Part shown: positions 5,177 to 41,799 of the stretch, piece after piece
Layout of the letters: every line of letters begins with the position of its first letter
How positions within the stretch are numbered: the stretch's first letter is position 1
DNA from: a virus
Taxonomy: Duplodnaviria > Caudoviricetes
DNA length: 41,800 bases
Strand: one strand, 5' to 3'
Virus record (IMG/VR): IMGVR_UViG_3300030620_000015
Location: 1-41,800 of that record
Translations under genes and position numbers: made by a program
Notes under the pieces: generated by a model
Seen by the model: the letters and a program-made list of their open reading frames with translations, nothing else
What the model was told of the DNA's origin: nothing
Database searches by the model: none

Positions 5177-5339
5177 GTGCTACTTCTGCGGCAAGGAAGT
5201 CGTTGAAGATGATTTCTGCTCGGGTTGCGACGCTCATGTCTGCGACGAGTGCGCGCTGATGGATCCAATCGGCCCACATAACCCCAGCGATCACCAGAAC
5301 GTCGAAGAGGAGCTGGAGGAGGTAGAAGATGACGGCTAA
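5166..5339 (+). CDS. Small Cys/His-rich Zn-finger protein with acidic tail (57 aa)
   Basis: MSTECYFC...FCSGC...VCDEC...H; GAGG RBS. Confidence 0.75.
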   Translation: MSTECYFCGKEVVEDDFCSGCDAHVCDECALMDPIGPHNPSDHQNVEEELEEVEDDG

Positions 5340-5670
5340 CCGGCCGACCGAGGCAGAGATTCAGGCCGCGATGTCGGCCAAGTGGTTCGAGTGCGACAGC
5401 TGGGGCGACGCGTGCACCGGATTCCTCTGACCGGCCGCGGAGGTGCTGCGGTCGCGGCACCCGGAGGTCCGGTTCGAGCGCGTCTGGGGGAGCGAGTTTC
5501 TGGAGCCGGAGACCGACGCAATGGAGGAGGCGGGGCAGGCTCTCGTGGATGTGGCGCACTGGCTTGGTTTCACCGAGGCCAGGATGGGCCCTTTGTTGTT
5601 CGGCCACTATCGCTACCTGGAGGCCCTGGAAGCGGAAGGGCCGAGTATCTTCGAACGGAGGACTTACTGA
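5329..5670 (+). CDS. Putative selenoprotein A (113 aa; in-frame TGA 5428-5430, context ACTGFL-U-PAAEV)
   Basis: Strong GGAGGAGG RBS before ATG 5329. The frame stays open after the TGA and ends in a TGATG overlap with the next gene. A SECIS-like hairpin starts 11 nt after the TGA. Confidence 0.75.
5442..5461 (+). promoter_or_regulatory. Bacterial SECIS-like hairpin GGUGCUGC-GGUC-GCGGCACC
   Basis: 8-bp stem with GGUC apical loop. First loop G is at +20 from the UGA. Resembles the E. coli fdhF minimal SECIS (GGUUGCAGGUCUGCACC, 11 nt from the UGA). Confidence 0.75.
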
Positions 5671-6467: not shown

Positions 6468-6610
6468 ACGCCAACGACCTCAAGGCCAAGCTCCGCGGGC
6501 TCTGCAGCCAGATCCTGGTTCAGGTCCGGCATTACCCGCACAACCATGACGCGCTGCGGGAACTGGCTGTGGCGATCATCGAACTTCTGGACGGGACCGA
6601 GGCTGAGTGA
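6464..6610 (+). CDS. Hypothetical protein (48 aa)
   Basis: GTGA overlap with GGAGG upstream. Confidence 0.6.
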   Translation: MNANDLKAKLRGLCSQILVQVRHYPHNHDALRELAVAIIELLDGTEAE

Positions 6611-6987
6611 TGGACAAGAAGCTAGCCAAGAGAGTCGTCCGCGCCTGCGTGCGGGCTCTGACCGATACCCAGGCCGCTAGGCTGATGACCCACGCGGCGA
6701 ACGAGACGCCGATCATCCATGACGAGAGGATCTGGAGCACTTGGTTCGCGCTCGGCGCCGGTTGACCGGCTGGACTGGCGGGATCCGACCGTGTGTTGGA
6801 TCATTACGGCAGTCCCTTGTTTCGGAATGACTGCTGCCTCGACGCCTTGAAGCGAATGGTCAATGTCGTAGAGCGCATCCAACTCGATGCCTACCAGAAG
6901 GCACACATGCCCCTCACGACCGACGAGATCCGCCGCATCTGGCTGGCCGAGGGCCGACGGCGCGGCTACGAGTTGGTGAACGCATGA
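6610..6987 (+). CDS. Putative selenoprotein B (125 aa; in-frame TGA 6763-6765, context WFALGAG-U-PAGLAG)
   Basis: Coupled start (TGATG 6608-6612). Same frame as ORF 6793-6987, which ends in an ATGA overlap. A weaker hairpin (6774-6792, GGAUC loop) follows the TGA. Confidence 0.6.
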
Positions 6988-13667: not shown

Positions 13668-13905
13668 GCTTGATCCCGAAGTAGCCCAGCACGAGGGCTA
13701 CGGCTCCGTCGGCAACGTCGCCGAGGACCCCGCGCACCCCGCCGCCACCGTAGGCCGAACGCATGGCGTCAATGATGACCTGCTTGGTGTCCGACGGCAG
13801 GTCTGAGTTGTTCACGACGTCGATGGCCTTCTCCAACGAGAAGGAATCGAACATGCCGCAGCTCGTGAGCAGCATCAGGAGAGCGATCAGCAGCAACTTC
13901 TTCAT
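13618..13905 (-). CDS. Lipoprotein with C-terminal hydrophobic segment (spanin-like)
   Basis: MKKLLLIALLMLLTSC lipobox; GAVALVLGYFGI followed by a basic tail. Confidence 0.7.
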   Translation of the reverse strand: MKKLLLIALLMLLTSCGMFDSFSLEKAIDVVNNSDLPSDTKQVIIDAMRSAYGGGGVRGVLGDVADGAVALVLGYFGIKHAPKLFGKKPPAPPAG

Positions 13906-16900: not shown

Positions 16901-19466
16901 CCACGATGTCTCGACCCTCCTTGGTGCGGATCAGATTCTCGTGGAACTTGAAGTGCCCGAGCTCCTTACCCTTGATGAAGCCTCCCCGGATCTTCGTGCG
17001 GACCCGATCAGGGTCGCTGCCTCCGATCCGCTTGGCGGTGAACGGGATGCGCAGACCCTTGCCACCGTGCTGTCCTTCCATCGCGAGGAAGATGTCGCTC
17101 TGGCGCACACCCGGCTCTCCGGCCGGACGTGTGCCGGCCACTTCGCGATAGGGCGGCCAATCCCCCGACTCCGGCATGCCCTTCCGGACGCCCACGTCCT
17201 CGGAAGGACGAACTTCGAGGGCCTCCCCCCTCAACTCCCGGGGCTCCAGTCCAGCCTTCTCCCACGCCCGCCTGGCAGCAGGCTGCAGGTCCTGCGCTGT
17301 CGCGCCGCCATCGGGGAACTTGGCGGCCATCCTCTTCATGACCTCCGAGAACAGGCCCTTGCCCTGGTGCTCCGGGACGATGTCGGCGCTGAACGAGACG
17401 AACTGCTTGCCCTTCGGAGTATAGAAGCCGCGGCCGATCACGGCGCCCTTCTGGTCCCTGATGGTCCATTCGTGCGTCCAGGGCTGGTCGGTGGCCTCGG
17501 ATTGCCGGAACTCCAGGCTGGCCTCCCCAGCCTTCCCGATGGCTTCGACCTCGCCTGCCTCCCTCCTGGACTGCTCTTCGATGGTCCTGATCTTCCTGGT
17601 CGCCTCCATGCGCTCGGCTGAACCACGCTGCGGGTCGCGGGCGATCATCCCGAGGGATTCGATCTCCTCGGTTGTTTCACGTGGGGTCTCTCTGGCGACA
17701 GCCTCTGCGGTGTCTTCGGCCGCAAGGATCCTGTCGACCTCCCCCTGTGGGCTGCGGCTACTGAGCTCCTGGACGTCCAGGGATGCCTCGAACTCGGTCA
17801 GCTCCTTCCTGGCCGCCTCCCGGCCCGCAGGCGTCCTGGCCCTCCTGTAGACCTTGGATAGGAAGTCCAGCTCGCTCAGCTGCTCAGGGGTCATCCCGGT
17901 CTTCGAGATCGCCTCTGGGTCAGCCTCGCCCCGGACGGCCCGCTCCGCGAACTCCTGCCTGGCCATGCTCCGGCGGACCTGCTGGGACGCGGCGTCGGCG
18001 ATCAGCTGGTTTTCGCTGCTCAGAAACGGCCGGCCGCCGGTTGCCGCCTTGAAGAGCATGAAGCCGACCGCGTTCTTGGCGTAGGTCTCCCAGGTCTCCT
18101 CGTTCGGGTTCTGGATGAAGCCCCAGGCGCTGGGCAGTAGGTCAGGAGCATGCGCCTCCAGGGCGCCGAAGCCGACGCCCTCCATCGCTCCACCGACAAG
18201 CTGGGCGACACGGCGCGGCATCTTCGCTCGGTGCTCGGCGAACCACTCGGTGCGCTTACCCATCGCTCCAAGGGCCATCAGCACCGGAGCCATCGTCATG
18301 CCGTGCACGAACGATGCTCCGTAGCCATCGATGCGGCCGTAGGCCATCGTCTCAGCGACACCGTTGCCCACCGCGGCGCCCATGGCTCCGCTGATCGTCC
18401 GGATGACTTTCCGGCCGCGCTCGGACATCCCGACTGCGCCGGTCAGCCGAAGCGTGGCGAGGTTGGTCATCCCTCGCTCGACCAGCTCGCCGAAAGTCTT
18501 CTGGCCGACCTTCATCGCTGCTCCTGCAGGAGCGCCGAAGCCGAACCCCATGCCGATGATCCGCGAGCCGCCTAGGATGATCGTGTCGATGCCGTCGCGC
18601 TGAGCGACTTCCCACTCGCGTGCCGCGCGGAACTCGGCGACCTTCTGCTCGATGTTGTCTCCGGTGATCGCGGCTCCCATCATGACGAGGGTGTCCATGA
18701 ACGCCGGCGCTCGACCGCCGTTGTCGTAGAGCTTGCCGTCCGGTCCCTGCACGTAGTTGTAGGGGAACGAAGGACCGACGTCCGGACCGCCGAGAGCGAG
18801 GATGCCAGCACGCCCTAACTCGTAGACCCCATGGATGGTGTTCGTCCCGAAGTCCATCACGCCTTCGGCGGCTTCTGCTACCGCCATCCAGACCGTCCCT
18901 ACTGCTCCGAGTTCCGCGCGCTGTTCTCCCTCACGTAGGAAGCCTGCGGTCCCCTGTCCAGACTCGCGGTTGATCCACTGGCCGATGTGCTTCGTGCGAG
19001 GGTCAGTGAAGAAGTCGAACGACGGGTCGATCGCCTTGCCTTGCGCCTGGATCTTCGCAGCGATGCCCCGCATGTTCGCCAGCACGTTCGGATCGACGGT
19101 GACGGGCTGGCTCTGCTGCGCTTGCTCCAACCACTGCTGCTCGTTCGCGGCTCGTTTGATCTGCACCGCGGCGTTTTGCGTCTTGTATTGCTCGATGACC
19201 CCTTGCCAGAACTGACTCAACTCGCTCCAGCCGCTTTGCTCGTTCAAGAAGATCTGCTGGTTCATCTGGCGCGTGGACTGCTCCATGCGCCACACCTGAT
19301 CGGTGATGAACGTGTCGTCGAACTGCGGGGGGCCGAGGGGGTTCGGCTCCGAGATGACGTTCTGTCCCTGCATCCCTTGCAGGATGCGGCCCATCACAAG
19401 CCGCTCTTCGTCCATGCCGACTTCGAGCGGGTCGGGCACGGCCCCCGGCACCTCGAAGTCGCTCAC
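13905..19466 (-). CDS. Large polyvalent / internal virion (ejection) protein, 1853 aa: GNAT-like, HExxH peptidase and LPD38-like domains
   Basis: IVPEHQGKGLFSEVM (GNAT motif A); AAHEWSHAMH...ESWAE; WYQDLPDWRKVYYF...IPKPFEAG (LPD38-like). Lies after the ejection genes. Confidence 0.8.
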   Translation of the reverse strand: MSDFEVPGAVPDPLEVGMDEERLVMGRILQGMQGQNVISEPNPLGPPQFDDTFITDQVWRMEQSTRQMNQQIFLNEQSGWSELSQFWQGVIEQYKTQNAAVQIKRAANEQQWLEQAQQSQPVTVDPNVLANMRGIAAKIQAQGKAIDPSFDFFTDPRTKHIGQWINRESGQGTAGFLREGEQRAELGAVGTVWMAVAEAAEGVMDFGTNTIHGVYELGRAGILALGGPDVGPSFPYNYVQGPDGKLYDNGGRAPAFMDTLVMMGAAITGDNIEQKVAEFRAAREWEVAQRDGIDTIILGGSRIIGMGFGFGAPAGAAMKVGQKTFGELVERGMTNLATLRLTGAVGMSERGRKVIRTISGAMGAAVGNGVAETMAYGRIDGYGASFVHGMTMAPVLMALGAMGKRTEWFAEHRAKMPRRVAQLVGGAMEGVGFGALEAHAPDLLPSAWGFIQNPNEETWETYAKNAVGFMLFKAATGGRPFLSSENQLIADAASQQVRRSMARQEFAERAVRGEADPEAISKTGMTPEQLSELDFLSKVYRRARTPAGREAARKELTEFEASLDVQELSSRSPQGEVDRILAAEDTAEAVARETPRETTEEIESLGMIARDPQRGSAERMEATRKIRTIEEQSRREAGEVEAIGKAGEASLEFRQSEATDQPWTHEWTIRDQKGAVIGRGFYTPKGKQFVSFSADIVPEHQGKGLFSEVMKRMAAKFPDGGATAQDLQPAARRAWEKAGLEPRELRGEALEVRPSEDVGVRKGMPESGDWPPYREVAGTRPAGEPGVRQSDIFLAMEGQHGGKGLRIPFTAKRIGGSDPDRVRTKIRGGFIKGKELGHFKFHENLIRTKEGRDIVVAAHEWSHAMHRHMIGESGHGYLRAGLQQAREAVRQDSRIIDEMDAMLQRYGSGPAKMPLRMKWAESWAEWHARNLLGDPHLAAKYPSLSQWHTRFLAAAENAALRPQYLRIQQLIASYNAQGARGRVRMERVHQTDQPTAEEQRHKPGVVERLKTVLDKAWLDDMAEMKKSQDKWLEAVGRKPEDVDITSDPARLYDALRMTASKTAEHYILNGIRLPSGGKIPGMAEVLKDFTPEETADFLDHVTAVINMQRMKRGRKAMLPPSDYIETIRQTNTPKIRTAARALKKWTDALVDYVQQSGAIDVDTASRIKDAYVVYVPMFRVMEGPAAHGRGRGIAERGTGLHRAKGSQFEIQDPLRALQDTARSLIAKAHQHQVMTALYKMAAGHEVGGLATMVQPKNVPHEHSVKRVLELLQEKLGDAELDPMLEALQAADALNPQTITLFTQKTMPTDQKAMIAYTPRLTEREINGLTSQGAAAAALRRQNGKVVWMEVDTKVYEALMGIDKMPQLPESMQPVMKWLQAPRDVIRFFATGIQPAFTVANLVRDAMSQPMFDPQGRFRPFGGFARLWRGAKLYHEGGAIRDLYEELGVKTASFLNEGRARQLAGQHPGIMHGLKEWTDKAQRFLATPESYLRMDAFKEAYDQARARGSSETEARMLALEAGREITVNFARAGVYGRILNQIIPYFNAGLQGQRKLFGQLLQGGVDTKGEANKARVQRAAWLNGMANITVPAVFLWAMNKDEEWYQDLPDWRKVYYFNMKIGGQIISIPKPFEAGTIFGSLPEMMLDRMVGNDPAGLREIASSVMGPYFDVMPAFAKPLYEVWTNYSFFTGRDLTPDWILRSQKPQEQATFMTSESAKLMSRVMNGVLTPIEIEHLLGGYTAGTSTAVLRTLDEVTGAKDHPAFSPTGISMFRRFYSQQVHGQSRYVDELYGMRTDITQREDELSVREKSLKRRVDTAVRQLSDLRKAAREGRMSQEEANKRSYELARRIVERN

Positions 19467-28095: not shown

Positions 28096-29772
28096 TCAGA
28101 ACGCCAGCAGCGATCCCAGGCTCGCCGCCCTCGTGAGTGGAATCTGATCGGAGATGTTGCCGCGGAACACGTCAGCGATGCTGCGCATGACGTCCTGGTT
28201 GGTGATGTTCCTGTTGTTCTTGCGTCGAAGGTCCTTGAGCTTGCTCTGGTAGATGCCGGCCATGTTCGCGGCGTTCTGCGAGTCGGTGTCCAGCATCAGA
28301 GCATGAGCCGCAGCGCCGTAGATCAGGACGTCGATGTCTTCCTGCGGAACGAACGGGATCTCGACGTCCGCCTCGTAGGGGAACAGCTGCCGAGCATAGT
28401 AGGACACAATCATGAAGGGATCGTCCGACTGCTGCTGCTCCGTCAACTGCTGAATCACCGGCTTGGGGTAGATCTGGACCTGCATCTGGTTGTTGGGTCC
28501 AGGATCGGTTCGAAGGAAGACCTTCGGTCTGCCTCCTGACTGGGTCACCCCCTGCAAGAGTCGGTAGAAGTCCACCGGCTCCATCTCGGTCAGCGGGCGG
28601 TCGTTCCAGTTGCCGGGTCGGATGTATTCCAGCTCTCCAAGGTTCGCCGGCATCTCGTAGGTGTCGACCCCGTCGCTCAGGTAGATCCGCTCCTCACGGC
28701 GCAGCCACTGCCAGTAGCCTTCCTTGCGGATCAGGTCAGCCTCGGCTTCGAGAACGAAGTTCAGGTAGGTCTCGACCTTCGTCGCCGCCCCCGTGGTCGC
28801 GTTGTATTTCGCGTCGCCGTCCTTCTCGACGAGCGTGATGACCCGGTTGACCACGCGCTGGTATGTCCACTCCGTCCCTGGAGCGATGCGCACCGGGCGC
28901 CTGATCTCCCGGAACGTCTCGACCTGGAAGATGCCGCACCGCAGCAGGGACAGCCCTGCAAGGCCGTAGGGGCTCACGCCGGCCGGCTGGTCCACGAGCT
29001 GCCCCGAGAGGAACTCGAATCCTGGGAAGCCGACCTCGCCCCACAGGGGGTCCTTCTTGTCGGTGTAGGTGAGCTTGGGCTGGTTCAGGCTCCGGTCGTT
29101 GAGGTAGACCTCGAGGATGACCTCGTTGTCGGTCCGGCGTATGCGTAGGCGCATGTCCTGCCAGAAGCCCTTGTAGGGCAGCACGTCGCCTTCGGAGTAG
29201 GAGCTGGAGTCGAACAAGGGGTCCAGGTTCAAGTCGTCGTGGTCCAGCGTGACCGACGTCAGGACCACCATCTGGTCGACCTCGGTCGAGCTCGGCCTGC
29301 TGAGGTTCGGCAGCCGCTTCACCGGCATGAACTTGACGATCTTCAACACGGGGGCCGTGCCGTCCCGCGGCATCGTCACCCTGGCTCCGTAGCCCTGGTC
29401 GTAGCAGCTGGGGTCTTCCGCACTCCCCAGATCGAAGAGCAGCGGGTCCTTCGACATGCGGGCCAGGATCGTGAAGCTGCTGGGCTGATCGACGGAGATG
29501 GGGTCAGCGGCGCTGGGATCCTCGCCGTCGTGAGCCCATGTCGTCCGAACCATGTAGTTCGGTCCGTCCATGAACTCCCCCGTGTAGAGCACCTGAGTCT
29601 TGAGAGACGTGACGCCGGCGGGGAACAGAGGGCTCGCACCGCTGACCACGAGTTCGGCGTCGATCGGGATGACGGCCTCGTCGCTGATGATGACGCCACC
29701 ACAGGCGACCGTGTAGTTCTGACCGATGCCTCCGTCGGCTCGAGTGAACTTGTCGATGAAGCGTGATGTCAT
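28096..29772 (-). CDS. Head-tail adaptor (tail tubular A-like C-domain) with N-terminal beta-sandwich extension (558 aa)
   Basis: DGVDTYEMP...GGRPKVF...IYPKP...DVLIYGAAAHA adaptor pattern. Start MTSRFIDKF at an ATGA overlap. Confidence 0.7.
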   Translation of the reverse strand: MTSRFIDKFTRADGGIGQNYTVACGGVIISDEAVIPIDAELVVSGASPLFPAGVTSLKTQVLYTGEFMDGPNYMVRTTWAHDGEDPSAADPISVDQPSSFTILARMSKDPLLFDLGSAEDPSCYDQGYGARVTMPRDGTAPVLKIVKFMPVKRLPNLSRPSSTEVDQMVVLTSVTLDHDDLNLDPLFDSSSYSEGDVLPYKGFWQDMRLRIRRTDNEVILEVYLNDRSLNQPKLTYTDKKDPLWGEVGFPGFEFLSGQLVDQPAGVSPYGLAGLSLLRCGIFQVETFREIRRPVRIAPGTEWTYQRVVNRVITLVEKDGDAKYNATTGAATKVETYLNFVLEAEADLIRKEGYWQWLRREERIYLSDGVDTYEMPANLGELEYIRPGNWNDRPLTEMEPVDFYRLLQGVTQSGGRPKVFLRTDPGPNNQMQVQIYPKPVIQQLTEQQQSDDPFMIVSYYARQLFPYEADVEIPFVPQEDIDVLIYGAAAHALMLDTDSQNAANMAGIYQSKLKDLRRKNNRNITNQDVMRSIADVFRGNISDQIPLTRAASLGSLLAF

Positions 29773-30212
29773 TCGACCTTGCACTCCTTGTGCCTGGCGA
29801 GGTTGCTCGGGTCGTCCCAATACGCCTTGTCGCCGGTCTCCCGGATCTTTCCGTGGTAGAGATGCGTTGGGACCGAATGCGTCTGCCTGATCGATCCGCG
29901 CTGACCGCCGGCATCGCGGATCTGCTTGCGCCTCGCCCTGACCTCCTCCTGGAACTCGCGTTCCACTCTGGCTCCGCTCTTCCCCCCATCATCCTGGCTG
30001 CGGACCTGGTGCTGCAGCGGGATGTCGCTCGCATCACGGCACTTGCTCGTGTCCAACATCGGTGCGTCTGCCTGCCAGTCTCGGAGCATGACCTTGCCGC
30101 AGCCCTGCCGGATGGAATCGGTCGCACAGAAGACGGTGGAGGGTGGACCTTCTGCCATGGACCTGTGCGTCTCGTATCGAGATCCGCAAGAGCACTTGAA
30201 CGAGTAGATCAC
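29769..30212 (-). CDS. FmdB-like Zn-ribbon protein (147 aa)
   Basis: IYSFKCSCG..YE...C....GCGKVM; GTG start with AGAGG RBS. Confidence 0.75.
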   Translation of the reverse strand: MIYSFKCSCGSRYETHRSMAEGPPSTVFCATDSIRQGCGKVMLRDWQADAPMLDTSKCRDASDIPLQHQVRSQDDGGKSGARVEREFQEEVRARRKQIRDAGGQRGSIRQTHSVPTHLYHGKIRETGDKAYWDDPSNLARHKECKVE

Positions 30213-30397
30213 CGCTTGAACCTCTTGGTCCCGCGACCGCAGGGACGCTTCTTGCCGCCTCAACCGTATCCTTTGGCGACCATGTTCTTCACTGCAACGT
30301 GGCCGCACTTCTGGTTTGTGCACCGAACGGTCAGCCGGATGGCTGACCGTTCGACGCGGACTGGCGAGCTGCACTTGCTGCAGACTCGCTCAGCCAT
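30209..30397 (-). CDS. Putative selenoprotein C (62 aa): CxxC...CxxxxC Zn ribbon + G-U-GGKKRPC basic tail
   Basis: ATG overlaps the capsid stop. In-frame TGA at 30262-30260. The read-through stop overlaps the next GTG (GTGA). SECIS-like hairpin follows. Absent from the ORF track. Confidence 0.8.
30228..30246 (-). promoter_or_regulatory. Bacterial SECIS-like hairpin GUCCC-U-GC-GGUC-GC-GGGAC
   Basis: Bulged U and GGUC loop as in the E. coli fdhF SECIS. First loop G is at +22 from the UGA. Confidence 0.8.
30324..30353. other. Perfect 13-bp inverted repeat inside the gene following the capsid gene
   Basis: CGAACGGTCAGCC-ggat-GGCTGACCGTTCG. Confidence 0.85.
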
Positions 30398-31425
30398 CAC
30401 GGACAGCCGCTGACGCCGGTGCACAGGCTGTCGATGAAGCCGATGCAGTTGGGGGCCAGGACCTCCAGGGTGCCTTCATACTCGACCATGCCCTTCGTCG
30501 AGCTGCCGATCTTCGCCAGCTCGACGGCCAGCACCGGGCGCAGCACCGCGATGCGGAGCTTGTTCTTCTCCGCGGTCGAGATGCGGTCCGTCCGCTGGTA
30601 GCGATGCAGGAAGATGCGCTGCGTGCCGAAGTCGGACTGGTAGAAGTCGACCGTGTTGATGACCGTCCGCTCGTTGACGGGGATGTTGTATCGAACGTTG
30701 GAGTTGGGGTTCAACGTGAGGTTGGACAGAGACCGCTTCTGCGCGGCGCCGCACCAAATCGTGTCCGTCATGGCGCCCTTGTTCCACATGGCCTCCAGGT
30801 GCGCGTTGAGCAGACACTCGTCGATGCAGTCGTCCGGCGAGCTGCCGGTGGCTTCGGTGACGGTCCCCATCTCGTCGGCGTTGAGGCCGAGCGTAGTTGC
30901 GCAGGTTGGGTCGGATGCCGCCGCGTAGGCGTAGAATCCGTCCATCTTGCGCGGCAGGACTCCGCCCGAGTTGCCCTGGGCGGTCTGCGACTGGCGGATC
31001 GAGTGCACGAGAGCGAACTCGATGAAGCGTGCGAGCTCCATCGTCGCCTTGCGCAGCTGGTAGACGTATTCGTCCCTGATGCCAGCCGTGTTGATGTCAC
31101 GCTGCGTGTCCGACACGTCGAACGTGCGTCGGAGGATGTGCGTGAGGTTGCAGAGACGCTTGCGCGGCGTCAGCGGATCGAAGGTGGCGTCCGAGCCTTC
31201 CGGGGTCGCCTGGACGTCAGCGTTGCCCACGTCCGGGTCGCCGAAGTCCGCCAGCGAGTCGATCAGCCATTCGTGGCTGATGTTGTTCGCCGGCACCTTC
31301 TCGAAGCCCGACAGGAACAGTGTGTCCATCGGGCTCGTCATGGTGATGATGTCGAGAAGATCCTCTCGGTTACCCGTTCCGACATCGAACGAGTTGAGGA
31401 CAGCCTGATTCAATACGAATACCAT
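30397..31425 (-). CDS. Major capsid protein (DUF5309/SU10-like, 342 aa)
   Basis: GNREDLLDII..SPMDT, HEWLIDSL, N.THI.R....VSDTQ, YQSDFG, LAKIGSS. Follows the scaffold gene. Confidence 0.9.
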   Translation of the reverse strand: MVFVLNQAVLNSFDVGTGNREDLLDIITMTSPMDTLFLSGFEKVPANNISHEWLIDSLADFGDPDVGNADVQATPEGSDATFDPLTPRKRLCNLTHILRRTFDVSDTQRDINTAGIRDEYVYQLRKATMELARFIEFALVHSIRQSQTAQGNSGGVLPRKMDGFYAYAAASDPTCATTLGLNADEMGTVTEATGSSPDDCIDECLLNAHLEAMWNKGAMTDTIWCGAAQKRSLSNLTLNPNSNVRYNIPVNERTVINTVDFYQSDFGTQRIFLHRYQRTDRISTAEKNKLRIAVLRPVLAVELAKIGSSTKGMVEYEGTLEVLAPNCIGFIDSLCTGVSGCP

Positions 31426-32519: not shown

Positions 32520-32658
32520 CGGAGTTCTCGACGGTGCACGACTTCCGCCCGTTCAGTGCCTTCGTGTCCGGGCGCGACTCCGGGGCAGCGCATTGGCTCG
32601 GTCATGCTCGGGGCGCAGACCGACAAGCCCGTCAGCACCGCAGGACTCCGACGGTCGG

Positions 32659-32880
32659 TCACCCGCCGTATCCCTTGATGTTCTCGTTGTCGCCGAAGCC
32701 GGTCGGCGCGCCCTGCCACTTGTTGTTCGTGGACGACGCTGGGTGACGACTGCGGGTCTTGTTGCCCAAAGCTCCGCTGGTCGCCGACATGCCGGCGGCC
32801 CGGCTCAGGGCCTTCACGTTGTCGCCGGTCTTCGGCTGAGCCGCTCCGACGGTTTCGCAGCAGTTCGGGGTGTCCTTCAT
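32659..32880 (-). CDS. Small hypothetical head-module protein (73 aa)
   Basis: GAGGA RBS; ATGA overlap. Confidence 0.65.
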   Translation of the reverse strand: MKDTPNCCETVGAAQPKTGDNVKALSRAAGMSATSGALGNKTRSRHPASSTNNKWQGAPTGFGDNENIKGYGG

Positions 32881-35643: not shown

Positions 35644-36574
35644 GGATCACCGGCCCTTCCCGCTGCGACACGGGTTGTCCGCCATCTGCGTGAATGGGTT
35701 GATCCTGTCGGGGACCTTGTCGAAGTCGCTCGACCGAAGCGGCATCCCGACGGTCCTGGTCTGGTTGTTGTCTTCCTCCGAAGGGAGGCTTGGCTTCGGT
35801 GAGTCGTCTTGCTTCTTGGGCATCGAGAACCTCCAGCGCATCGTAGACGGGTCCGACCCAGCCAGGCCACAGCAACGCCCGGCCAGGATGCTGAGACCTA
35901 TACCACCGCAACCACTCCAAGGCACGCTCCGCATCGTAGATCGCCCGTTTTCTGGTCACCGGGTTGTCGGATCCGAAGAAGTAGCCGGTGCCCGTGGCCA
36001 GGGTGAACCCGAGGCAGTAGATCGGGCTGCAACCCATCAGGTGAGCCGTCTGGATCATGAAGCACAGCGAGTTGCCTGACGGGTGGTAGGGGTCGCGGAT
36101 CCTCTTCGGCAAGAACGGGGCGGTGTGGGGCGGCTTGAAGATTCCGGTTCTGGGGTCACGCTTGCCTCCGGGCTTGTGCCTCTCGATCGTGATGTCGCAG
36201 CTCGGCCACTTGCGCTGCCCAACCATGCGAAGCTGCGTGGCTCCAGCCACGGAGTATGGCCCGCCACCGAAGATGCTCTTGTTCGCTACGACAACCATGG
36301 AGTCGGGGCATCGAGCGAGATGGCTTCGCTCTTCCTTCCAGACTCCGAGATCGACGACATGCCAAACGCTGGGGACCAGCGCCCGCAGGGTCCAGTTGGA
36401 TCCGATGACAAGCTCGTCCTGCGCAGCCTGGAGTCCTGCTGACTCAACCAGACCTCCGGCTCCCCCAAGGAGGAAGGCAGCTCTCCCTTGGCCGATCCCT
36501 TCAAGCCAACCCGGATCAGGACTTCTGCCGCCCGGTGCGCGTAGCTGTGCCGCTTTGAAATGAGGGTAGAGCAT
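35591..36574 (-). CDS. DUF115/Maf-like (GT-related) protein
   Basis: AFLLGGAGGL...VIGSN...SGNSLCFMIQTAHLMGCSPIYCLGF pattern. Confidence 0.65.
   Translation of the reverse strand: MLYPHFKAAQLRAPGGRSPDPGWLEGIGQGRAAFLLGGAGGLVESAGLQAAQDELVIGSNWTLRALVPSVWHVVDLGVWKEERSHLARCPDSMVVVANKSIFGGGPYSVAGATQLRMVGQRKWPSCDITIERHKPGGKRDPRTGIFKPPHTAPFLPKRIRDPYHPSGNSLCFMIQTAHLMGCSPIYCLGFTLATGTGYFFGSDNPVTRKRAIYDAERALEWLRWYRSQHPGRALLWPGWVGPVYDALEVLDAQEARRLTEAKPPFGGRQQPDQDRRDAASVERLRQGPRQDQPIHADGGQPVSQREGPVIRERPDAARKRIYRRRPS
35647..35823 (-). CDS. Small hypothetical protein (58 aa), nested in the 3' end of the upstream ORF
   Basis: GGAGG RBS before MPKKQDD; ends 3 nt before the portal start. Confidence 0.55.
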   Translation of the reverse strand: MPKKQDDSPKPSLPSEEDNNQTRTVGMPLRSSDFDKVPDRINPFTQMADNPCRSGKGR

Positions 36575-37626
36575 GCTTTTCCGATCGCCTCCGCTTCGTC
36601 CCTGTGTCTCAGATAATAGAGGACCAGCTCCGCGAAGTGGTCTGGATCCTGAGCCTGCGGGGCCATCGGGAAGAGTCGCGCTAGCTCGCTGCGGTGGTTG
36701 TCGTTCACCACAAGCGTCCCGCACGAAGCCATCTCCAGAAACCTCGGGTTCAGATGCTCGGCATCCAGGTTGCCGTCGTTCCAGAACCCGGTTCCCCACT
36801 TTCTGGGTGGGCCGTCTGGCTTCTTGAGACCCTTCGGCCACGGCATCGCCTGATCGTTTCGGCCCCTTACCCGACGCTTCCAGCACAGCTCGTTCATCCA
36901 CGGGGACCTGTGAACGTTGAGTCCAACGATGCACCTGCTGTAGTGCGACGCGTGATCGCTTAGCGGGATCCACTCCTTCTTGCCCTTTGCCACGTTGGAT
37001 CTCAGGTAGCAGATCCTGGCGCCCTCGACTAGTCTCTCTACAGGCCGCAGCCAATCAGCCCTTGGGGTTAGGGTTCCGTTTCCAAGGAAGAACGCGGAGA
37101 CGTCGCGCTCGCTGTAGTCCCGGTAAGCGAATCGGTCGGTGTCTACTCCTGGAGGAAGGTAAAACACGTGTCTCCTATCCTCCCTGGATAGGCGGTGGAC
37201 ATCGACTGTCGATGGATCCATCGTGAACACGAATCCGAACCGCGGACTGTATCGCGCTGTCTCGCCAACCTCGTATGGCTCGTCGCACAGGTAGACCGCG
37301 GTCTTTGCTCCCACCTTGTGGATCTGACTGAGAAACTCGTTGTTGCTCGCCGCTCGGCCATGGTGGCAGAAGACCAGGTCCGGCCTCCACTGAGAGATGT
37401 TGCGACCAACATCCTTCGCCGTCCCTGGCATGCGACGGCTCCTGTAGGGTGAGAACGAACTGACCTGCGTCCCACGCAGGATCGAGATGTCGAAGACCTC
37501 GACACGGCATCCGATCTTGCGGAACCCCTCGACCCATCCGGACCGGTAGTCGTCGGAGAAGATCAGGCCCGAGTCGTCGGCGACCGCTACTCGAACCGGG
37601 TCAGAGGGACCGATCGAACGGGACAC
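36286..37626 (-). CDS. CgeB-like GT-B glycosyltransferase
   Basis: PDLVF, DEPY, LPPGVD, GLNVHR, NPRFLEMASCGTLVV, HSYAHRA motifs. Confidence 0.85.
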   Translation of the reverse strand: MSRSIGPSDPVRVAVADDSGLIFSDDYRSGWVEGFRKIGCRVEVFDISILRGTQVSSFSPYRSRRMPGTAKDVGRNISQWRPDLVFCHHGRAASNNEFLSQIHKVGAKTAVYLCDEPYEVGETARYSPRFGFVFTMDPSTVDVHRLSREDRRHVFYLPPGVDTDRFAYRDYSERDVSAFFLGNGTLTPRADWLRPVERLVEGARICYLRSNVAKGKKEWIPLSDHASHYSRCIVGLNVHRSPWMNELCWKRRVRGRNDQAMPWPKGLKKPDGPPRKWGTGFWNDGNLDAEHLNPRFLEMASCGTLVVNDNHRSELARLFPMAPQAQDPDHFAELVLYYLRHRDEAEAIGKACSTLISKRHSYAHRAAEVLIRVGLKGSAKGELPSSLGEPEVWLSQQDSRLRRTSLSSDPTGPCGRWSPAFGMSSISESGRKSEAISLDAPTPWLS

Positions 37627-38216
37627 AGCTGATGCTCCTTGGTCGCGATCATGGAGTAGTTCACCGCCTGCATGTGCCACGCAGTTCCTCCGCCTGAGAG
37701 GGCCAGCCTGCTCCAATGCTCGACGGGATCCACATTGCCTAGCGGCTGGACCAGTTTCGCAAACTTCGTCTGCACCATCGCGAACCTGCATCCGGCCTGA
37801 GCCGGCTTGTTGTGCTGCCGGCGAACCGGATGCATCGTCGTGCTCATCGTGTCGGGCAGCGTGTCCACGATTCCGCAGACCGGATCCTTCAAGAAGATCT
37901 GCTGCATCTTGCCGAACCACTGCCGGTCATCGATCCGGACCGCCGGCGAGATCAGGGTGAACAACGCCGTGTGGATGTCCTGCAGGGCTTCCCTGATCGA
38001 CTGATTCAGGCCCACCGGGTGCTGGTTGAACAGCACCTGCCACGGGACGTCGCCTGCGGAGAAGGAGTCGGAGACTGAGGCGGCCTCGTCTGGGGTCGTG
38101 CCGTCCAGGATGGCCACGATCCTGATGGGGACGTCGGTGTCGCGAGCGATCCGTTCGACGCACTCGCTGATGAGCTCGATGTCGCTAGCCTGGGCTGGGA
38201 TCAGCAAGTCGTGCAC
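37587..38216 (-). CDS. GT-A (GT2-like) fold protein, possibly degenerate (209 aa)
   Basis: DLLIP...ECVERI...IVAILDG...N..PVGLNQSI. The DxD position appears replaced (ISPAV). Confidence 0.65.
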   Translation of the reverse strand: MHDLLIPAQASDIELISECVERIARDTDVPIRIVAILDGTTPDEAASVSDSFSAGDVPWQVLFNQHPVGLNQSIREALQDIHTALFTLISPAVRIDDRQWFGKMQQIFLKDPVCGIVDTLPDTMSTTMHPVRRQHNKPAQAGCRFAMVQTKFAKLVQPLGNVDPVEHWSRLALSGGGTAWHMQAVNYSMIATKEHQLCPVRSVPLTRFE

Positions 38217-38439
38217 GCTGGTTCTCCTCTAGTTGTCTCGCCCCCTCGCGGGCGATGAATCGACGCTGGCAACGCTGGCTGCAGAAGACGACGTAGTCCT
38301 TGCATGCCCGGATCGATGACCTTGCCGGCCCTGACGGGACGATCACCAGGTTAGAGCAGCCACGGCATGGGATCTGCGCTTGCTCGTTTGCCATCTGCTC
38401 TTGGTTCCGGATCAGGACCTTCGTCGGGGTCGACAGCAT
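38185..38439 (-). CDS. Small Zn-binding protein (CxxC...FCSxxC)
   Basis: IPCRGC...VFCSQRC. The true start may be ATG 38394. Confidence 0.65.
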   Translation of the reverse strand: MLSTPTKVLIRNQEQMANEQAQIPCRGCSNLVIVPSGPARSSIRACKDYVVFCSQRCQRRFIAREGARQLEENQRARLADPSPG

Positions 38440-38866
38440 ACCCGGTCGGAAGGATCAGTCCATTGGGGGATCGCATCTGCTGGTTCACGGCGTCGTGCTC
38501 GATGTTACCGAACTGCTTGGCTGGATCCCGTAGTTGTCTGAACTGCAGACGCGGATCGATGCCTTCGGACTCCGCGGCCAGATGGGCTGACTCGAGCAGC
38601 TCCTCCCTGGTCCTCGGCCCGAATCGGTAGCTGTCTCCAGGCTGCGCGTTGTGGCCGACCTGCGTTCCGGACAGCTGCTCGATGCCGTTCTGGACGGCGT
38701 TCTGAATCGCCTCCATGACCTGCAGGATCCACTGCTGGCTGCCGTAGCGGCGAACCAGGATGTCCCCTACGGCTTGGGCGGCTTCGGTGGCCTGCGCCAG
38801 AAACTTTCGAGTTCGCCGGACGGTGTTGCGGGGCTTTGGCTGTCCCCGCCCTGCCTGTTGAGCCAT
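38351..38866 (-). CDS. Hypothetical protein (171 aa)
   Basis: MAQQAGRGQPK...; overlaps the terminase 3' end by 100 bp. Confidence 0.6.
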   Translation of the reverse strand: MAQQAGRGQPKPRNTVRRTRKFLAQATEAAQAVGDILVRRYGSQQWILQVMEAIQNAVQNGIEQLSGTQVGHNAQPGDSYRFGPRTREELLESAHLAAESEGIDPRLQFRQLRDPAKQFGNIEHDAVNQQMRSPNGLILPTGYAVDPDEGPDPEPRADGKRASADPMPWLL

Positions 38867-40500
38867 AGGTCTGCTTGTCCTTCTGACCGCTGATCTCGCA
38901 TCACCATCTCCCTCACCGGGTAGCCCCGGTCGGGGTTGAACGAGCCGTCGATCATGGTTGGTTTCTGCACGAAGCCAGACTGAGCGCGCCATCCCGACGG
39001 AGGGGCTGGGGCGATGTGCCTGCCTTCCTTGTCCTGCTTGTCGATGTCGCTGATCGCATCGGGAATGTCGTCATGGGCACTGTAGGGCCACTCGGTCATC
39101 TCACGATACATGGGCATCCACTTTCTCGATTGCTCTTTCAGGCTTCGGGCGAAGTAGATGTTGGCTTGCCGGAATCGGACCTCCGCAGACTCAATCCTGA
39201 TGTCCTTGATCTCCTGGCTCCTGCCAGGGACCGGGAGGATCTTCGGTCTGATGAACGTCTCCCGGCGCATCTCCTCGAACAAGGACTGCAGCAGTTCCTT
39301 GTGGGTGGTGTCCTCGACGACGATTCCGCGCATGTTCAAGGGCTGGTAGCGGTTCCACAGGTCGCAAGCGATCCGCACGCTGTCGCTGGGCTTCCATCGC
39401 CCAACGTAGAAGTCCCGAACGTAGGCCACCCTGTTGCAGTCGAGCGACACAACCCAGAAGCATGTGCGGTCTGCTCTTCCCTTCTTCTTCTCCTCCGCGA
39501 TGAACGCGAAATCCGTGAAGATGTAGGTCCACACGTGTAGAGGGACGTCCCGGTCTTCGATCACCCGGAAGTATTCCGGTCGGAAGATGCGCTCTTCGTC
39601 GAGCGTCGGCTTGTTCTCGTAGAAGCACGCGAACTTGCGCGAGGACATCAACGCCTTCTGCTGTGCGATGAAGGCGTTGGTCAGTCTGCCGGGGAAGAAC
39701 AGCGAGCCATCCTGGTTCTTCCATCCGTGGATCGACGTCTCGAATAGATCCCGCATCTCCTTCGTCTTGAGGATGCGGCAGTAGAGATCGGCGAAGTGGT
39801 GCAGCGTGCCGATCATCAAGATGCGGCACCCGGGATCGAGCTGAGCGAGGATCTCGCTGAACCACTCGAACATCGACTCCAGCGCTTCTGCGGTCCTGGT
39901 GTTTTCGCCGGACACGACGTCGTCCATGATGACCAGGTCCCAGTGGGATCCGGTCCATACCTCGCCGGCACCCGCAGCCAGCAGCGTCGGCTCCTTCGTG
40001 TGCTTGTCCGTCCGGAGGGCCGACGTGAACTCGCCAGAGCCGTCCTTCCAGTCCTTGCCCTTGTGGACCCCGAATCGCTCTCGGAACCATTCCGAGTCGA
40101 TGATCTTCATGGCCTGCTTGACGAACTTGCGGGCCTGCTTGCCCGTCTCGGAGCAGACGACAATCCGGATGTTCGGGTTGCGCGCGATCTCCCAACACGC
40201 CATGGCAACGTTGAACACCGCGGACTTGAAGGACCCTCGCGGCCACAGCTGCAGCTTGTAGGTGTAGATCCCCCGCTCGCTCTCAGGGTCTGAGCGCCAC
40301 TTCCAGTTCAGGATCTCGTGAGCTCCCTTGCCGTGCGGATACTGCTGGGCGTCCGGGGCGCCCCCACAGTCCCTCGCGAAGTCGAGGAAGCCCTCGACTG
40401 TCTTGTAGTAGTCCGTCTCCTGCTGCAGTCGATACTGCCGCAGCTCCTCGGGGCTGAGGTTCTTGACGAACTTAGGAAGGTCTACACCAGCCTTGTCCAA
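38767..40500 (-). CDS. terL: Terminase large subunit
   Basis: WPRGSFKS (Walker A), TGSHWDLVIMDD (Walker B), IGT, nuclease FTDFA...D and HDDIPDA. Confidence 0.93.
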   Translation of the reverse strand: MDKAGVDLPKFVKNLSPEELRQYRLQQETDYYKTVEGFLDFARDCGGAPDAQQYPHGKGAHEILNWKWRSDPESERGIYTYKLQLWPRGSFKSAVFNVAMACWEIARNPNIRIVVCSETGKQARKFVKQAMKIIDSEWFRERFGVHKGKDWKDGSGEFTSALRTDKHTKEPTLLAAGAGEVWTGSHWDLVIMDDVVSGENTRTAEALESMFEWFSEILAQLDPGCRILMIGTLHHFADLYCRILKTKEMRDLFETSIHGWKNQDGSLFFPGRLTNAFIAQQKALMSSRKFACFYENKPTLDEERIFRPEYFRVIEDRDVPLHVWTYIFTDFAFIAEEKKKGRADRTCFWVVSLDCNRVAYVRDFYVGRWKPSDSVRIACDLWNRYQPLNMRGIVVEDTTHKELLQSLFEEMRRETFIRPKILPVPGRSQEIKDIRIESAEVRFRQANIYFARSLKEQSRKWMPMYREMTEWPYSAHDDIPDAISDIDKQDKEGRHIAPAPPSGWRAQSGFVQKPTMIDGSFNPDRGYPVREMVMRDQRSEGQADLWLNRQGGDSQSPATPSGELESFWRRPPKPPKP

Positions 40501-41228
40501 CGGAACCTGATCCTATCGCCGCCGCGCTGCGCCCACCACTTCCATCCGTTCCTTACGGCTCCGATCTTCTTCACCTTGGACCGGAAGATCGCCGTGTTCC
40601 TGCGGAGACTCCGGTCGATCGTCGTGACGATCGCGTCCGGGACATCTTTCAGTCCATAGAAGTGCGCGAAGATGTCGTCTCGCCACACGGACTTGATCCC
40701 CACCGCCCGGAGGCACCGCATCAGCATCACGTCGCTGTAGCCCTTGGCTCCAGCGAAGTCTTCGTCATATCCACCAGCCTTCCAGAAGTCGTTGCGATGC
40801 AGGATATGCGTGTTCGGTGACGTGTTGTCCATCTCCCCGGTCCGCACGTGCTTCAACAGGAAGCGGAGATTCGATCCCTGCTTCATCTTCGATACCGCGG
40901 CGAGGATCTTCTGGATCACTTCCGAGTCAAGGACCATGTCCGGGTCCAGCATCGCGACCCAACCGCCTGCTTCCTGCATCGCCAGATTGCGTGCGCCGCC
41001 TTGGTTCCACTTGATGTCATCATCGACCCTGTAGAGGCGCGCCTCCTTGACGAGCAGTGCAAGCTCTTTGATCTGCGTCTCGTCGACCGGCGGCGCCCCA
41101 TGGTCATCGACGATGAAGACCCGCAGCCGTTCCAGGACGCCATCCGGGTAGCCACGGATCGTGTCGAGCTGCTTCGCCAGCATCATCGGCTGACCGAACA
41201 CCGCCATAGCTATCGTCAGATTGTTCAT
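40482..41228 (-). CDS. GT2/GT7-like glycosyltransferase (248 aa)
   Basis: IVDDHG, WNQGGARNL, LDPDMV (DxD), GGYDEDFAG..GYSD. Confidence 0.88.
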   Translation of the reverse strand: MNNLTIAMAVFGQPMMLAKQLDTIRGYPDGVLERLRVFIVDDHGAPPVDETQIKELALLVKEARLYRVDDDIKWNQGGARNLAMQEAGGWVAMLDPDMVLDSEVIQKILAAVSKMKQGSNLRFLLKHVRTGEMDNTSPNTHILHRNDFWKAGGYDEDFAGAKGYSDVMLMRCLRAVGIKSVWRDDIFAHFYGLKDVPDAIVTTIDRSLRRNTAIFRSKVKKIGAVRNGWKWWAQRGGDRIRFRWTRLV

Positions 41229-41755
41229 GGCTTGCGGAGAATCATCACCCGGCGAGCATGTCTGGTGCTCTGGTGAACTGGATCGAATCTCATCTCGGTG
41301 ACGTGCTTCCAGATCTCGTCCGGGTCATTCACTGCATGCTTGTCCTCTCGGTCAGGAAGCGCAACGGCCAGGATCTCCTTCCGCTCCAGCATCCCGGCGC
41401 CCACCTTGAGCGCGTCCTTCCAGTCGGTGATGTGCTCCAGGCTGTCCAGGAACAGCACGGCGTTGAAGTGGCTTCCGGCGAAGTCGTGAACCGTCCCAAG
41501 CCTGATGAGGTTCCCGTGCCACTTGCCAAGGTCCACGGCGTAGGGATCGGTATCGCACCCTACAGGGTAGCAGCCGGACTCCTTGAGCTTATTCATGATG
41601 AGGCCTTCCCCGCAGCCGACCTCAAGAATCACCGATCCAGGGCTCAAGACGCTCTGTAGAGCTTCGACGAGATCGATGACGTGCAGTCGGTAGGGATCGC
41701 GCTGCTTGTTGAATGCCGCGTAGTGGTAGGCTCCGCGATCCCTGTATTTACTCAC
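41225..41755 (-). CDS. Class I SAM-dependent methyltransferase (176 aa)
   Basis: ILEVGCGEG, GCD, DSLEHI motifs. GTG 41755 has AGGAGG upstream. Confidence 0.88.
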   Translation of the reverse strand: MSKYRDRGAYHYAAFNKQRDPYRLHVIDLVEALQSVLSPGSVILEVGCGEGLIMNKLKESGCYPVGCDTDPYAVDLGKWHGNLIRLGTVHDFAGSHFNAVLFLDSLEHITDWKDALKVGAGMLERKEILAVALPDREDKHAVNDPDEIWKHVTEMRFDPVHQSTRHARRVMILRKP

Positions 41756-41799
41756 CTCCCATGCCTCCTGAACGAGAACCACTCGTTGTCGAAGATATC
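41752..41799 (-). CDS. 3' end of a truncated upstream gene (...DIFDNEWFSFRRHGR)
   Basis: Open to the window edge; its stop overlaps the methyltransferase GTG. Confidence 0.5.
   Translation of the reverse strand, partial: DIFDNEWFSFRRHGR

What the first reader, a model, noticed from the sequence alone, without database searches (positions are those of the whole stretch)
30209..30397. Hidden Zn-ribbon selenoprotein directly behind the major capsid gene
Seen: MAERVCSKC...RCTNQKC...KGYG-TGA-GGKKRPCGRGTKRFKR. The hairpin GUCCC-U-GC-GGUC-GC-GGGAC has both the bulged U and the loop of the fdhF SECIS. Only read-through restores the GTGA coupling to the FmdB-like gene. Inference: Sec supplies a metal ligand or redox residue (GUGG...C) plus a basic tail. 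Sec insertion may also tune translation of the downstream head-completion/tail genes.
Basis: partly seen in the sequence, partly recalled or inferred. Interest (0 to 1): 0.85.

Follow-up and report, generated by a model that had tools for sequence, protein, structure and literature searches.

The report
Phage selenoprotein family behind capsid gene
A tiny zinc-finger gene next to the capsid gene of a group of uncultured bacterial viruses keeps the same internal UGA 'stop' codon and RNA hairpin in every relative where the gene was found, so the stop is very likely read as the rare amino acid selenocysteine, which would make this a selenoprotein family made by phages.

Summary
Confirmed and strengthened. 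The minus-strand ORF 30397-30209 of this 41.8-kb SU10-type phage encodes a C4 zinc ribbon, an in-frame UGA (codon 46) and a 16-residue basic tail. All 65 distinct homologous loci keep TGA, while the neighbouring capsid stop switches about 14-15 times on the tree. The tail stays open and in frame, a cysteine lies within eight residues of the UGA in 65 of 65, and a covarying GU-loop hairpin sits about 22 nt after the UGA (58 of 65, against 19 in synonymous shuffles). New here: the genome has two more UGA-plus-hairpin genes (5428, 6763). The UGA at 6763 aligns to cysteine in a full-length homologue. Selenocysteine insertion by the host SelB system is the best reading (~0.88). A Sec-Cys redox pair and step-down of downstream translation are inferred only. 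Against: no Cys orthologue of this family, no expression data, host unknown, and the fdhF-like bulged U is not conserved. Eight of my literature searches ran, seven aimed at phage selenoproteins, and none found one. Earlier notes of this scan reported similar zinc-ribbon UGA candidates in other phages, none alike in sequence.

The parts
30209..30397 (-). Candidate selenoprotein ORF, 62 aa with read-through (45 aa if UGA terminates)
   Evidence: 65 distinct homologous loci
30305..30382 (-). C4 zinc ribbon (Cys6, 9, 26, 31)
   Evidence: invariant in 46 of 46 rows; AlphaFold three-strand ribbon, pLDDT 78-89 over residues 1-40; weak Rpb9/TFS/RPP21-type matches
30260..30262 (-). In-frame UGA, likely Sec46, after a K-G-x-G linker
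   Evidence: TGA in 64 of 64 non-redundant profile hits plus L127
30228..30246 (-). SECIS-type hairpin, GGUC loop at 30238-30235 (+22 to +25 from UGA)
30239..30241 (-). Cys53 codon, likely partner of Sec46; its first base is the bulged U
   Evidence: Cys within 8 residues after UGA in 64 of 65; the exception has C-G-G-U
30209..30259 (-). Basic tail (family mean 42% K/R) whose stop overlaps the next start (GTGA)
30397..31425 (-). SU10-type major capsid protein with conserved C-terminal C-x5-C; its stop overlaps the ORF's ATG
29769..30212 (-). FmdB-like zinc-ribbon gene, coupled downstream; followed by the gene with an SU10 adaptor domain (28096-29772)
6607..6987 (+). Second candidate selenoprotein (126 aa): UGA 6763-6765, hairpin 6782-6802 with CGUGU loop; UGA aligns to Cys of a full-length homologue
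5329..5670 (+). Third candidate selenoprotein (113 aa): UGA 5428-5430, hairpin 5442-5461 with GGUC loop; no homologue found
   Evidence: z -3.15

Best explanation
This is a core gene of an SU10-type phage clade whose invariant in-frame UGA is very likely decoded as selenocysteine by the host's SelB/tRNA-Sec machinery at the conserved GU-loop hairpin about 22 nt downstream, predicted to give a 62-residue zinc-ribbon protein with a basic tail that likely carries a Sec-Cys redox pair. SHOWN (sequence level): invariant TGA, selection on the tail as protein in the UGA frame, a UGA-anchored covarying hairpin, an obligate nearby Cys, overlap of the tail stop with the next start. INFERRED (~0.88): the residue is Sec, put in by host SelB; I found no tRNA in this genome. 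INFERRED (~0.4): the four invariant Cys bind zinc; Sec and the mobile tail Cys form a reversible selenenylsulfide on a flexible Gly/Lys/Arg arm that binds DNA or the head interior, and this acts in head assembly as a thiol-redox partner of the Cys-rich head proteins, such as the capsid's C-terminal C-x5-C. INFERRED (~0.35, compatible with the former): since Sec insertion competes with termination (textbook knowledge, recalled), only ribosomes that insert Sec would reach the coupled start. That would lower FmdB-like/adaptor synthesis relative to capsid and tie it to the host's selenium supply.
For: (1) TGA in 64 of 64 non-redundant loci, found with a profile built only from the part before the stop, plus L127 by eye. 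Patterns allowing TAA/TAG/TGG/TGY gave TGA 18 of 18 times, in contigs already held. (2) Controls: the capsid stop in 46 of these loci is TAG 22/TGA 18/TAA 6 with 15 changes on a quick tree, one row (L032) misparsed. The small gene before the scaffold, which also ends KGYGG-TGA here, ends at varied places with all three stops. (3) UGA-to-next-start distance is 2 mod 3 in 50 of 51 over 12 lengths from 32 to 101 nt. Frame 0 is open in 50 of 51, while the +1 and -1 frames are closed in 25 and 22 of 51. Tail codons 1-5 vary most at third positions (457/340/720, 239 non-independent pairs). (4) GU-loop hairpin in 58 of 65 against 19.4+/-3.5 (max 28) in 60 synonymous shuffles and 53 of 975 random positions. 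Stem pairs 2-4 are paired in 44, 44 and 39 of 46 cores with G-C/C-G/U-A swaps, and 0 of 2000 column shuffles reach this (kinship is not corrected for). The loop slides between reading-frame registers (+22/+25 against +21/+24) and is anchored to the UGA (sd 1.9 nt), not to the next start (sd 8.1). (5) Cys within 8 residues downstream in 64 of 65 at variable spacing; the one exception has C-G-G-U instead; +1-frame control 3 of 65, -1 frame 20 of 65. (6) In this genome a UGA with the family's second loop type (6763) aligns to Cys in a 125-aa homologue, 42% identical with similarity on both sides. (7) The two genome bins that hold related contigs both have SelA, SelB and SelD; G001 also has tRNA-Sec(UCA). 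One MvhD selenoprotein hairpin read from each bin has a GU-containing loop.
Against: No Cys-containing orthologue of this family was found: all 32 short family-like proteins among the hits end at the UGA position, whereas nearly all known selenoproteins have Cys homologues (PMC13188914, passage). No RNA, ribosome or protein evidence. The host is unknown: the bin links rest on one unintegrated phage contig in a fragmented 8.7-Mb bin with two selD copies and one 2.2-kb contig, so they may be binning errors. G001's SelD hairpin lacks the GU loop. Seven of 65 loci lack a GU-loop hairpin at the threshold. The generic bSECIS criteria are met by 63 of 65 loci but also by 92 of 120 random TGAs, so they do not discriminate. 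The genome-wide scan gives TAG hits at a similar rate to non-family TGA hits (8 of 6812 against 16 of 18317), so the hairpin alone proves nothing for the 5428 gene. The tail is poorly predicted (pLDDT 53-61), so there is no structural support for the redox pair. The window's FmdB-like gene has its own SD-like AAGAGG.
Confidence: 0.82

Rival explanations
1. The UGA is recoded through the same kind of hairpin but to cysteine, by a SelC*-type tRNA-Cys(UCA) with SelB*, as described for some anaerobic deltaproteobacteria.
For: Such tRNAs exist and suppress opal codons (PMC5389517, abstract and passages). The 6763 UGA aligns to Cys.
Against: The paper found the full Sec apparatus in the genomes with these tRNAs. 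If Cys sufficed, TGC/TGT versions should arise, and none was seen in 65 loci.
Confidence: 0.04
2. Leaky, SelB-independent stop read-through (Q-beta-like, near-cognate tRNA) makes a minor extended form; the hairpin is a generic stimulator.
For: The codon before UGA is GGT in 50 of 65, a possible leaky context. Read-through alone explains the open tail and the coupling.
Against: It does not explain the invariant loop GU at SelB-type spacing, the obligate Cys next to the UGA or the UGA/Cys alignment at 6763. The base after UGA is not fixed (G28/C17/A13/T7).
Confidence: 0.06
3. UGA is a true stop. The 45-aa zinc ribbon ends in a Gly-rich (ubiquitin-like) tail, and the hairpin controls initiation of the next gene.
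For: Databases list only the 41-46 aa forms, many ending in GG. An earlier scan note reached this verdict for another phage (e1-6308909).
Against: The stop never changes while the capsid stop changes about 14-15 times. Spacer length changes only by whole codons in 50 of 51. The hairpin is anchored to the UGA, not the start. The ends include GYG, GFR and GRS, so GG is not invariant.
Confidence: 0.04
4. Programmed frameshift at GGU-UGA (prfB-like +1, or -1 fusing the ribbon to the FmdB-like protein).
For: A purine-rich stretch lies 3 nt before the P-site codon, as in prfB (recalled), and the -1 frame is open in the window.
Against: The +1 frame has stops in 25 of 51 and the -1 frame in 22 of 51, while frame 0 is open in 50 of 51.
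Confidence: 0.02
5. Genome-wide UGA reassignment (code 4 or 25).
For: None beyond the in-frame TGA.
Against: 16 of 22 gene ends that I picked in this genome are TGA, and capsid stops alternate between TGA, TAG and TAA at one place.
Confidence: 0.005

Closest known systems
Bacterial SelB/SECIS-dependent selenoprotein genes (prototype E. coli fdhF)
   Same: In-frame UGA; in-ORF hairpin just downstream with GU in the loop; same GGUC loop as fdhF in 25 of the 58 hairpins; UxxC/CxxU-like neighbourhood as in many listed families (PMC13188914, passages).
   Different: Encoded by a phage in its head module. Loop at +22 rather than +19, bulge geometry differs and is not conserved. A second 5-nt loop class (CGUGU). 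No Cys orthologue found. No Rfam SECIS hit.
NF041197 dual CXXC motif small (seleno)protein
   Same: Small, two CxxC knuckles; weak match to the ribbon only (13.8-20.5 bits, cut-off 40).
   Different: Its Sec motif is RxU (PMC13188914, table passage); here Sec follows K-G-x-G about 15 residues after the ribbon; cellular, not phage.
FmdB-family selenoproteins (TIGR02605, UxxU)
   Same: Zinc ribbons with Sec; the downstream neighbour here is FmdB-like (14.4 bits, cut-off 31.3).
   Different: There Sec replaces ribbon cysteines (UxxU); here all four Cys are kept and Sec is extra.
Poxvirus glutathione peroxidase selenoproteins (molluscum contagiosum, fowlpox)
   Same: Viral genes decoded with host Sec machinery (PMC8310308, passages).
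   Different: Eukaryotic SECIS and captured host enzymes; here a phage-specific family with no cellular copy found.
Phage tRNA-Sec genes (Basilisk-like phages PMC6145125; huge phages PMC10747093)
   Same: Phage link to Sec biology.
   Different: In the passages seen, those papers report tRNAs and no selenoprotein gene; this genome has no tRNA.

Membership tests
Bacterial selenoprotein gene (SelB/bSECIS) | In-frame UGA conserved across homologues, with coding conservation beyond it | tested here: met
   65 of 65 TGA; tail open 50 of 51; third-position bias
Bacterial selenoprotein gene (SelB/bSECIS) | Hairpin with 3-9 nt loop, G in first two positions, 4-16 bp stem, 16-37 nt from UGA, MFE <= -7.5 (PMC13188914) | tested here: met
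   window: GGUC, 7 bp, spacing 21, -16.2; 63 of 65 loci. Permissive: 92 of 120 random TGAs also pass. The conserved GU loop with covariation is the discriminating part
Bacterial selenoprotein gene (SelB/bSECIS) | UGA aligns to Cys in orthologues (Sec/Cys pair), for the capsid-adjacent family | tested here: not met
   no Cys form among hits from 5.8 billion and 1.84 billion proteins or in 65 loci. A common criterion, not universal, and a small cluster could be missed
Bacterial selenoprotein gene (SelB/bSECIS) | Sec/Cys pair, for the second gene in this genome (UGA 6763) | tested here: met
   P0157, 42% identity over 125 columns, Cys at the UGA; one homologue only
Bacterial selenoprotein gene (SelB/bSECIS) | Host encodes SelA, SelB, SelC, SelD | tested here: inconclusive
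   present in bins G001 (all four) and G002 (A, B, D; tRNA-Sec not found) that hold related contigs; host link unproven
Bacterial selenoprotein gene (SelB/bSECIS) | Selenium incorporated at the UGA, SelB-dependent | not testable with these tools
   needs 75Se labelling, mass spectrometry or a reporter
E. coli fdhF-type SECIS (strict) | Bulged U with three base pairs up to a GGUC loop at +19 | tested here: not met
   two pairs and +22 in the window; bulge absent in most relatives
NF041197 dual CXXC (seleno)protein | Score above 40 bits and RxU motif | tested here: not met
   13.8 bits for the window, best 20.5 of five members tried
Ogr/Delta late activators (PF04606) | Pfam score above 26.3 bits | tested here: not met
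   13.9 bits; 3 of 46 members match weakly

The most novel reading that the evidence does not exclude
A widespread clade of podoviruses has an obligate selenoprotein as a core head-module gene, with no cysteine version. It builds a Sec-Cys redox switch into virion assembly and, through translational coupling, makes synthesis of its head-completion proteins depend on the host's selenium supply. This genome carries three selenoprotein genes, so the phage is restricted to Sec-utilising hosts and has evolved its own selenoproteins.
Probability: 0.35. Interest if true: 0.93.

Novelty: new variant of a known kind. Interest (0 to 1): 0.82.

Why it matters
My searches found no described selenoprotein in a virus of bacteria; a 2026 review of the prokaryotic selenoproteome does not use the words phage, virus or viral in its main text. 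This family has unusually strong comparative support, is hidden in databases as 41-46 aa truncations, and sits in the head module rather than among captured metabolic genes. If confirmed, phages can make their own selenoproteins, depend on a patchily distributed host pathway (a host-range predictor), and may couple morphogenesis to selenium. The 65 natural hairpin variants are also a ready test set for what SelB recognises. The claim can be tested with a short reporter.

Tried and rejected
Second KGYGG-TGA gene (32880-32659, minus): rejected as a selenoprotein, relatives end at varied stops with no conserved tail; used as negative control. Rfam: no family in the window at gathering level; one chance lncRNA match in the stretch. 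No tRNA in the window. Family assignment of the ribbon: Pfam, PHROGs, NCBIfam and Foldseek (PDB, BFVD) gave only weak generic zinc-ribbon matches; Foldseek had none at E <= 0.001, and the PDB sequence search reached E 5e-5 for RNA-polymerase ribbons. No relative of the ORF among 50,697 GenBank phage records; capsid matches there are all under 60% identical, the top 30 at 29-33%. Homologues of the 5428 gene: none in viral contigs, 28 related records or GenBank phages. UGA-bearing homologues of the 6763 gene: none. The ESM Atlas look-up for these two genes was not obtained, so look-alikes there remain open. Sequencing runs: no RNA holder listed. Fdh-alpha matches in bins G001/G002 carry no in-frame stop. 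Frameshift, code reassignment and true-stop readings: see rivals. No complex prediction was run, since no binding claim is made. The careful tree did not finish; the quick tree was used.

Full report
1. Observation. The window is a whole 41.8-kb virus record with SU10-type portal, major capsid and adaptor domains on the minus strand. Directly behind the capsid gene, whose stop overlaps its ATG, lies an ORF of 45 codons ending K-G-Y-G, then TGA (30262-30260), then 16 further codons rich in Lys/Arg with one Cys, then a TGA that overlaps the GTG of an FmdB-like gene. A hairpin with a GGUC loop lies 22 nt after the UGA. Alone it is unremarkable (z -1.1 to +0.35). The fdhF SECIS fetched from E. coli has the same loop at +19 with one more pair above the bulge, and is itself no more stable than shuffles.

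2. Relatives. Capsid- and FmdB-anchored scans gave 134 loci. A profile built only from the part before the stop found the gene in 116 of 135 sequences (window included), 64 after removing duplicates, and all 64 have TGA. Of the 19 misses, L127 has a diverged copy with TGA, tail Cys and hairpin. L090, L096 and L109 have other genes before the FmdB-like gene, so the gene is not adjacent there and absence is not shown. L009, L095 and L120 end too soon. The other 12 I did not inspect one by one; several had no capsid stop or ended just after it. All 65 loci have the capsid upstream at 70-93% identity to the window's, sometimes with inserted genes. The ORF itself diverges to about 26%. In protein collections the family appears only as forms ending at the UGA position (32 proteins picked by length and C-terminal pattern). 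No full-length Cys form was seen.

3. The stop is not an ordinary stop. The capsid stop, a few codons away, is TAG 22/TGA 18/TAA 6 in the 46 loci with a parsed capsid and needs 15 changes on a quick tree; one row, L032, was misparsed, so about 14-15. The UGA needs none. The distance from UGA to the next start is 2 mod 3 in 50 of 51 loci where that start was recognised, over 12 lengths. Frame 0 is open in 50 of 51; the other frames are closed in 25 and 22 of 51. By my reading, the tail stop overlaps a start codon in 59 of 63, also where another gene follows. Only 13 of 51 downstream genes have a GGAG/GAGG core, though the window's does.

4. The hairpin is selected as RNA. A GU-loop hairpin of -4 kcal/mol or better occurs in 58 of 65 loci, against 19.4+/-3.5 when codons are synonymously shuffled and 53 of 975 random positions. 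Loops are mainly GGUC (25) or CGUGU/C (22). After dropping four loci without a hairpin at -3 or better and setting L010 by hand to its +22 hairpin, 46 distinct cores remain. Pairs 2-4 are kept in 44, 44 and 39 of them with two-sided changes (pair 1 is paired by construction, and kinship is not corrected for). The loop keeps its distance to the UGA (22.7+/-1.9 nt), not to the next start (33.1+/-8.1; 48 loci), and it appears in more than one reading-frame register. Without selecting for GU, codon 8 after the UGA is GGT in 21 of 23 GGN and CGT in 16 of 28 CGN cases, against 16% and about 15% in long ORFs of these loci. The published bSECIS criteria (PMC13188914, passages) are met by 63 of 65, but also by 92 of 120 random TGAs.

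5. The residue looks like Sec. A Cys lies within eight residues after the UGA in 64 of 65 loci, most often as U-x-x-C (31) or seven residues on (18). The one exception has C-G-G-U. A scan of all 1082 TGA triplets of this genome put two more sense-strand UGAs with the family's two loop types near the top, at 5428 and 6763. Each joins two half-ORFs into a gene that fits between overlapping neighbours, and both are seen in Logan contigs of the same sample. The 6763 UGA aligns to Cys in a 125-aa database protein, with similarity on both sides. This is the classical Sec/Cys pair, though from one homologue. The 5428 hairpin has z -3.15 but no homologue, and the background rate of such hits is not negligible. 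In 13 related records the same scan recovered the family gene in 12 (G020's hairpin differs) and one further plausible gene in G021.

6. Host. Unknown. Two genome bins hold related contigs; both have SelA, SelB and SelD, and G001 has tRNA-Sec. One MvhD selenoprotein from each has a GU-containing loop; G001's SelD hairpin does not. The bins are fragmented and the contigs are not integrated, so this is weak.

7. Mechanism. AlphaFold gives a three-strand zinc ribbon and a low-confidence tail; matches are generic. With four invariant Cys, Sec is not needed for that site. The mobile but obligate partner Cys points to a selenenylsulfide or second metal site on a flexible basic arm (inference). The capsid ends in C-x5-C in most loci where my pattern matched. 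It has lost both Cys in L118/L127, one lineage, where the Sec gene is also most degraded: a single event, only a hint at a capsid-related thiol role. Partial Sec insertion plus coupling would lower downstream expression (inference from textbook knowledge).

8. What is known. Seven searches aimed at phage selenoproteins (an eighth was for the SECIS model) found none described. Seen as passages: PMC13188914 (no mention of phage or virus in the main text; table of families), PMC8310308 (poxvirus selenoproteins), PMC6145125 and PMC10747093 (phage tRNA-Sec only), PMC9402790 (few or no viral sequences in selenoprotein families), PMC5389517 (SelC*), PMC13449736 and bioRxiv 10.1101/2022.07.06.499078 (criteria). 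I read no supplements; large selenoprotein screens may list members there, and most subscription papers are not searchable. Earlier notes of this scan describe zinc-ribbon UGA candidates in other phages; none resembles this one by sequence or place. They are unchecked and are not counted as support.

9. Verdict. It works like a bacterial SelB/SECIS selenoprotein gene and meets the sequence criteria except a Cys orthologue of its own. It is not a member of any named selenoprotein family tested. Sec ~0.88; function inferred. New variant of a known kind; interest 0.82.

Noticed in passing
window 6607-6987 (+): Second likely selenoprotein: in-frame TGA at 6763 aligns to Cys in homologue P0157; CGUGU-loop hairpin at +25; read-through fills the gap between overlapping neighbours.
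   Followed up: yes
window 5329-5670 (+): Third candidate: in-frame TGA at 5428 with a strong GGUC-loop hairpin at +20 (z -3.15), Cys five residues upstream; no homologue found.
   Followed up: partly
L179 (G021) minus strand, TGA at 2222: CxxC ... UGA ... CxCxxC small gene with a CGUGC-loop hairpin in a related phage: another Sec candidate.
   Followed up: partly
window 32529-32583 (-): Conserved non-coding motif just upstream of the putative scaffold gene; its GGCACTGAA...GTCGTGC core was found in 24 of 42 capsid loci by a strict pattern. Possible cis-regulatory RNA or late promoter; no Rfam hit.
   Followed up: partly
window 30397-30425 (-), capsid C-terminus: Capsid ends in a conserved C-x5-C motif; both Cys lost in L118/L127, where the Sec gene is most diverged.
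   Followed up: partly
L008, L009, L025, L027, L030, L042 (after the capsid stop): HNH-type endonuclease genes (recognised by eye from their motif) inserted between capsid and the Sec gene; L003-L007 carry a different insert, and L133 has two inserted genes there.
   Followed up: no
codon before the UGA, window 30263-30265 (-): GGT in 50 of 65 loci although GGC is the commonest Gly codon: an unexplained synonymous constraint at the P-site codon.
   Followed up: no
window 32659-32880 (-): Conserved 73-aa Gly/Ser-rich gene between portal-side genes and scaffold; ends KGYGG-TGA here but is not recoded.
   Followed up: yes
window 36286-41782 (-): Cluster of glycosyltransferase and methyltransferase genes upstream of the portal, possibly for virion or DNA modification.
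   Followed up: no
window 13905-19466 (-): 1853-aa protein with an LPD38 domain, likely an ejected internal virion protein.
   Followed up: no
window 5670-6467 (+): Alanine-rich repeat protein between the two extra Sec candidates.
   Followed up: no
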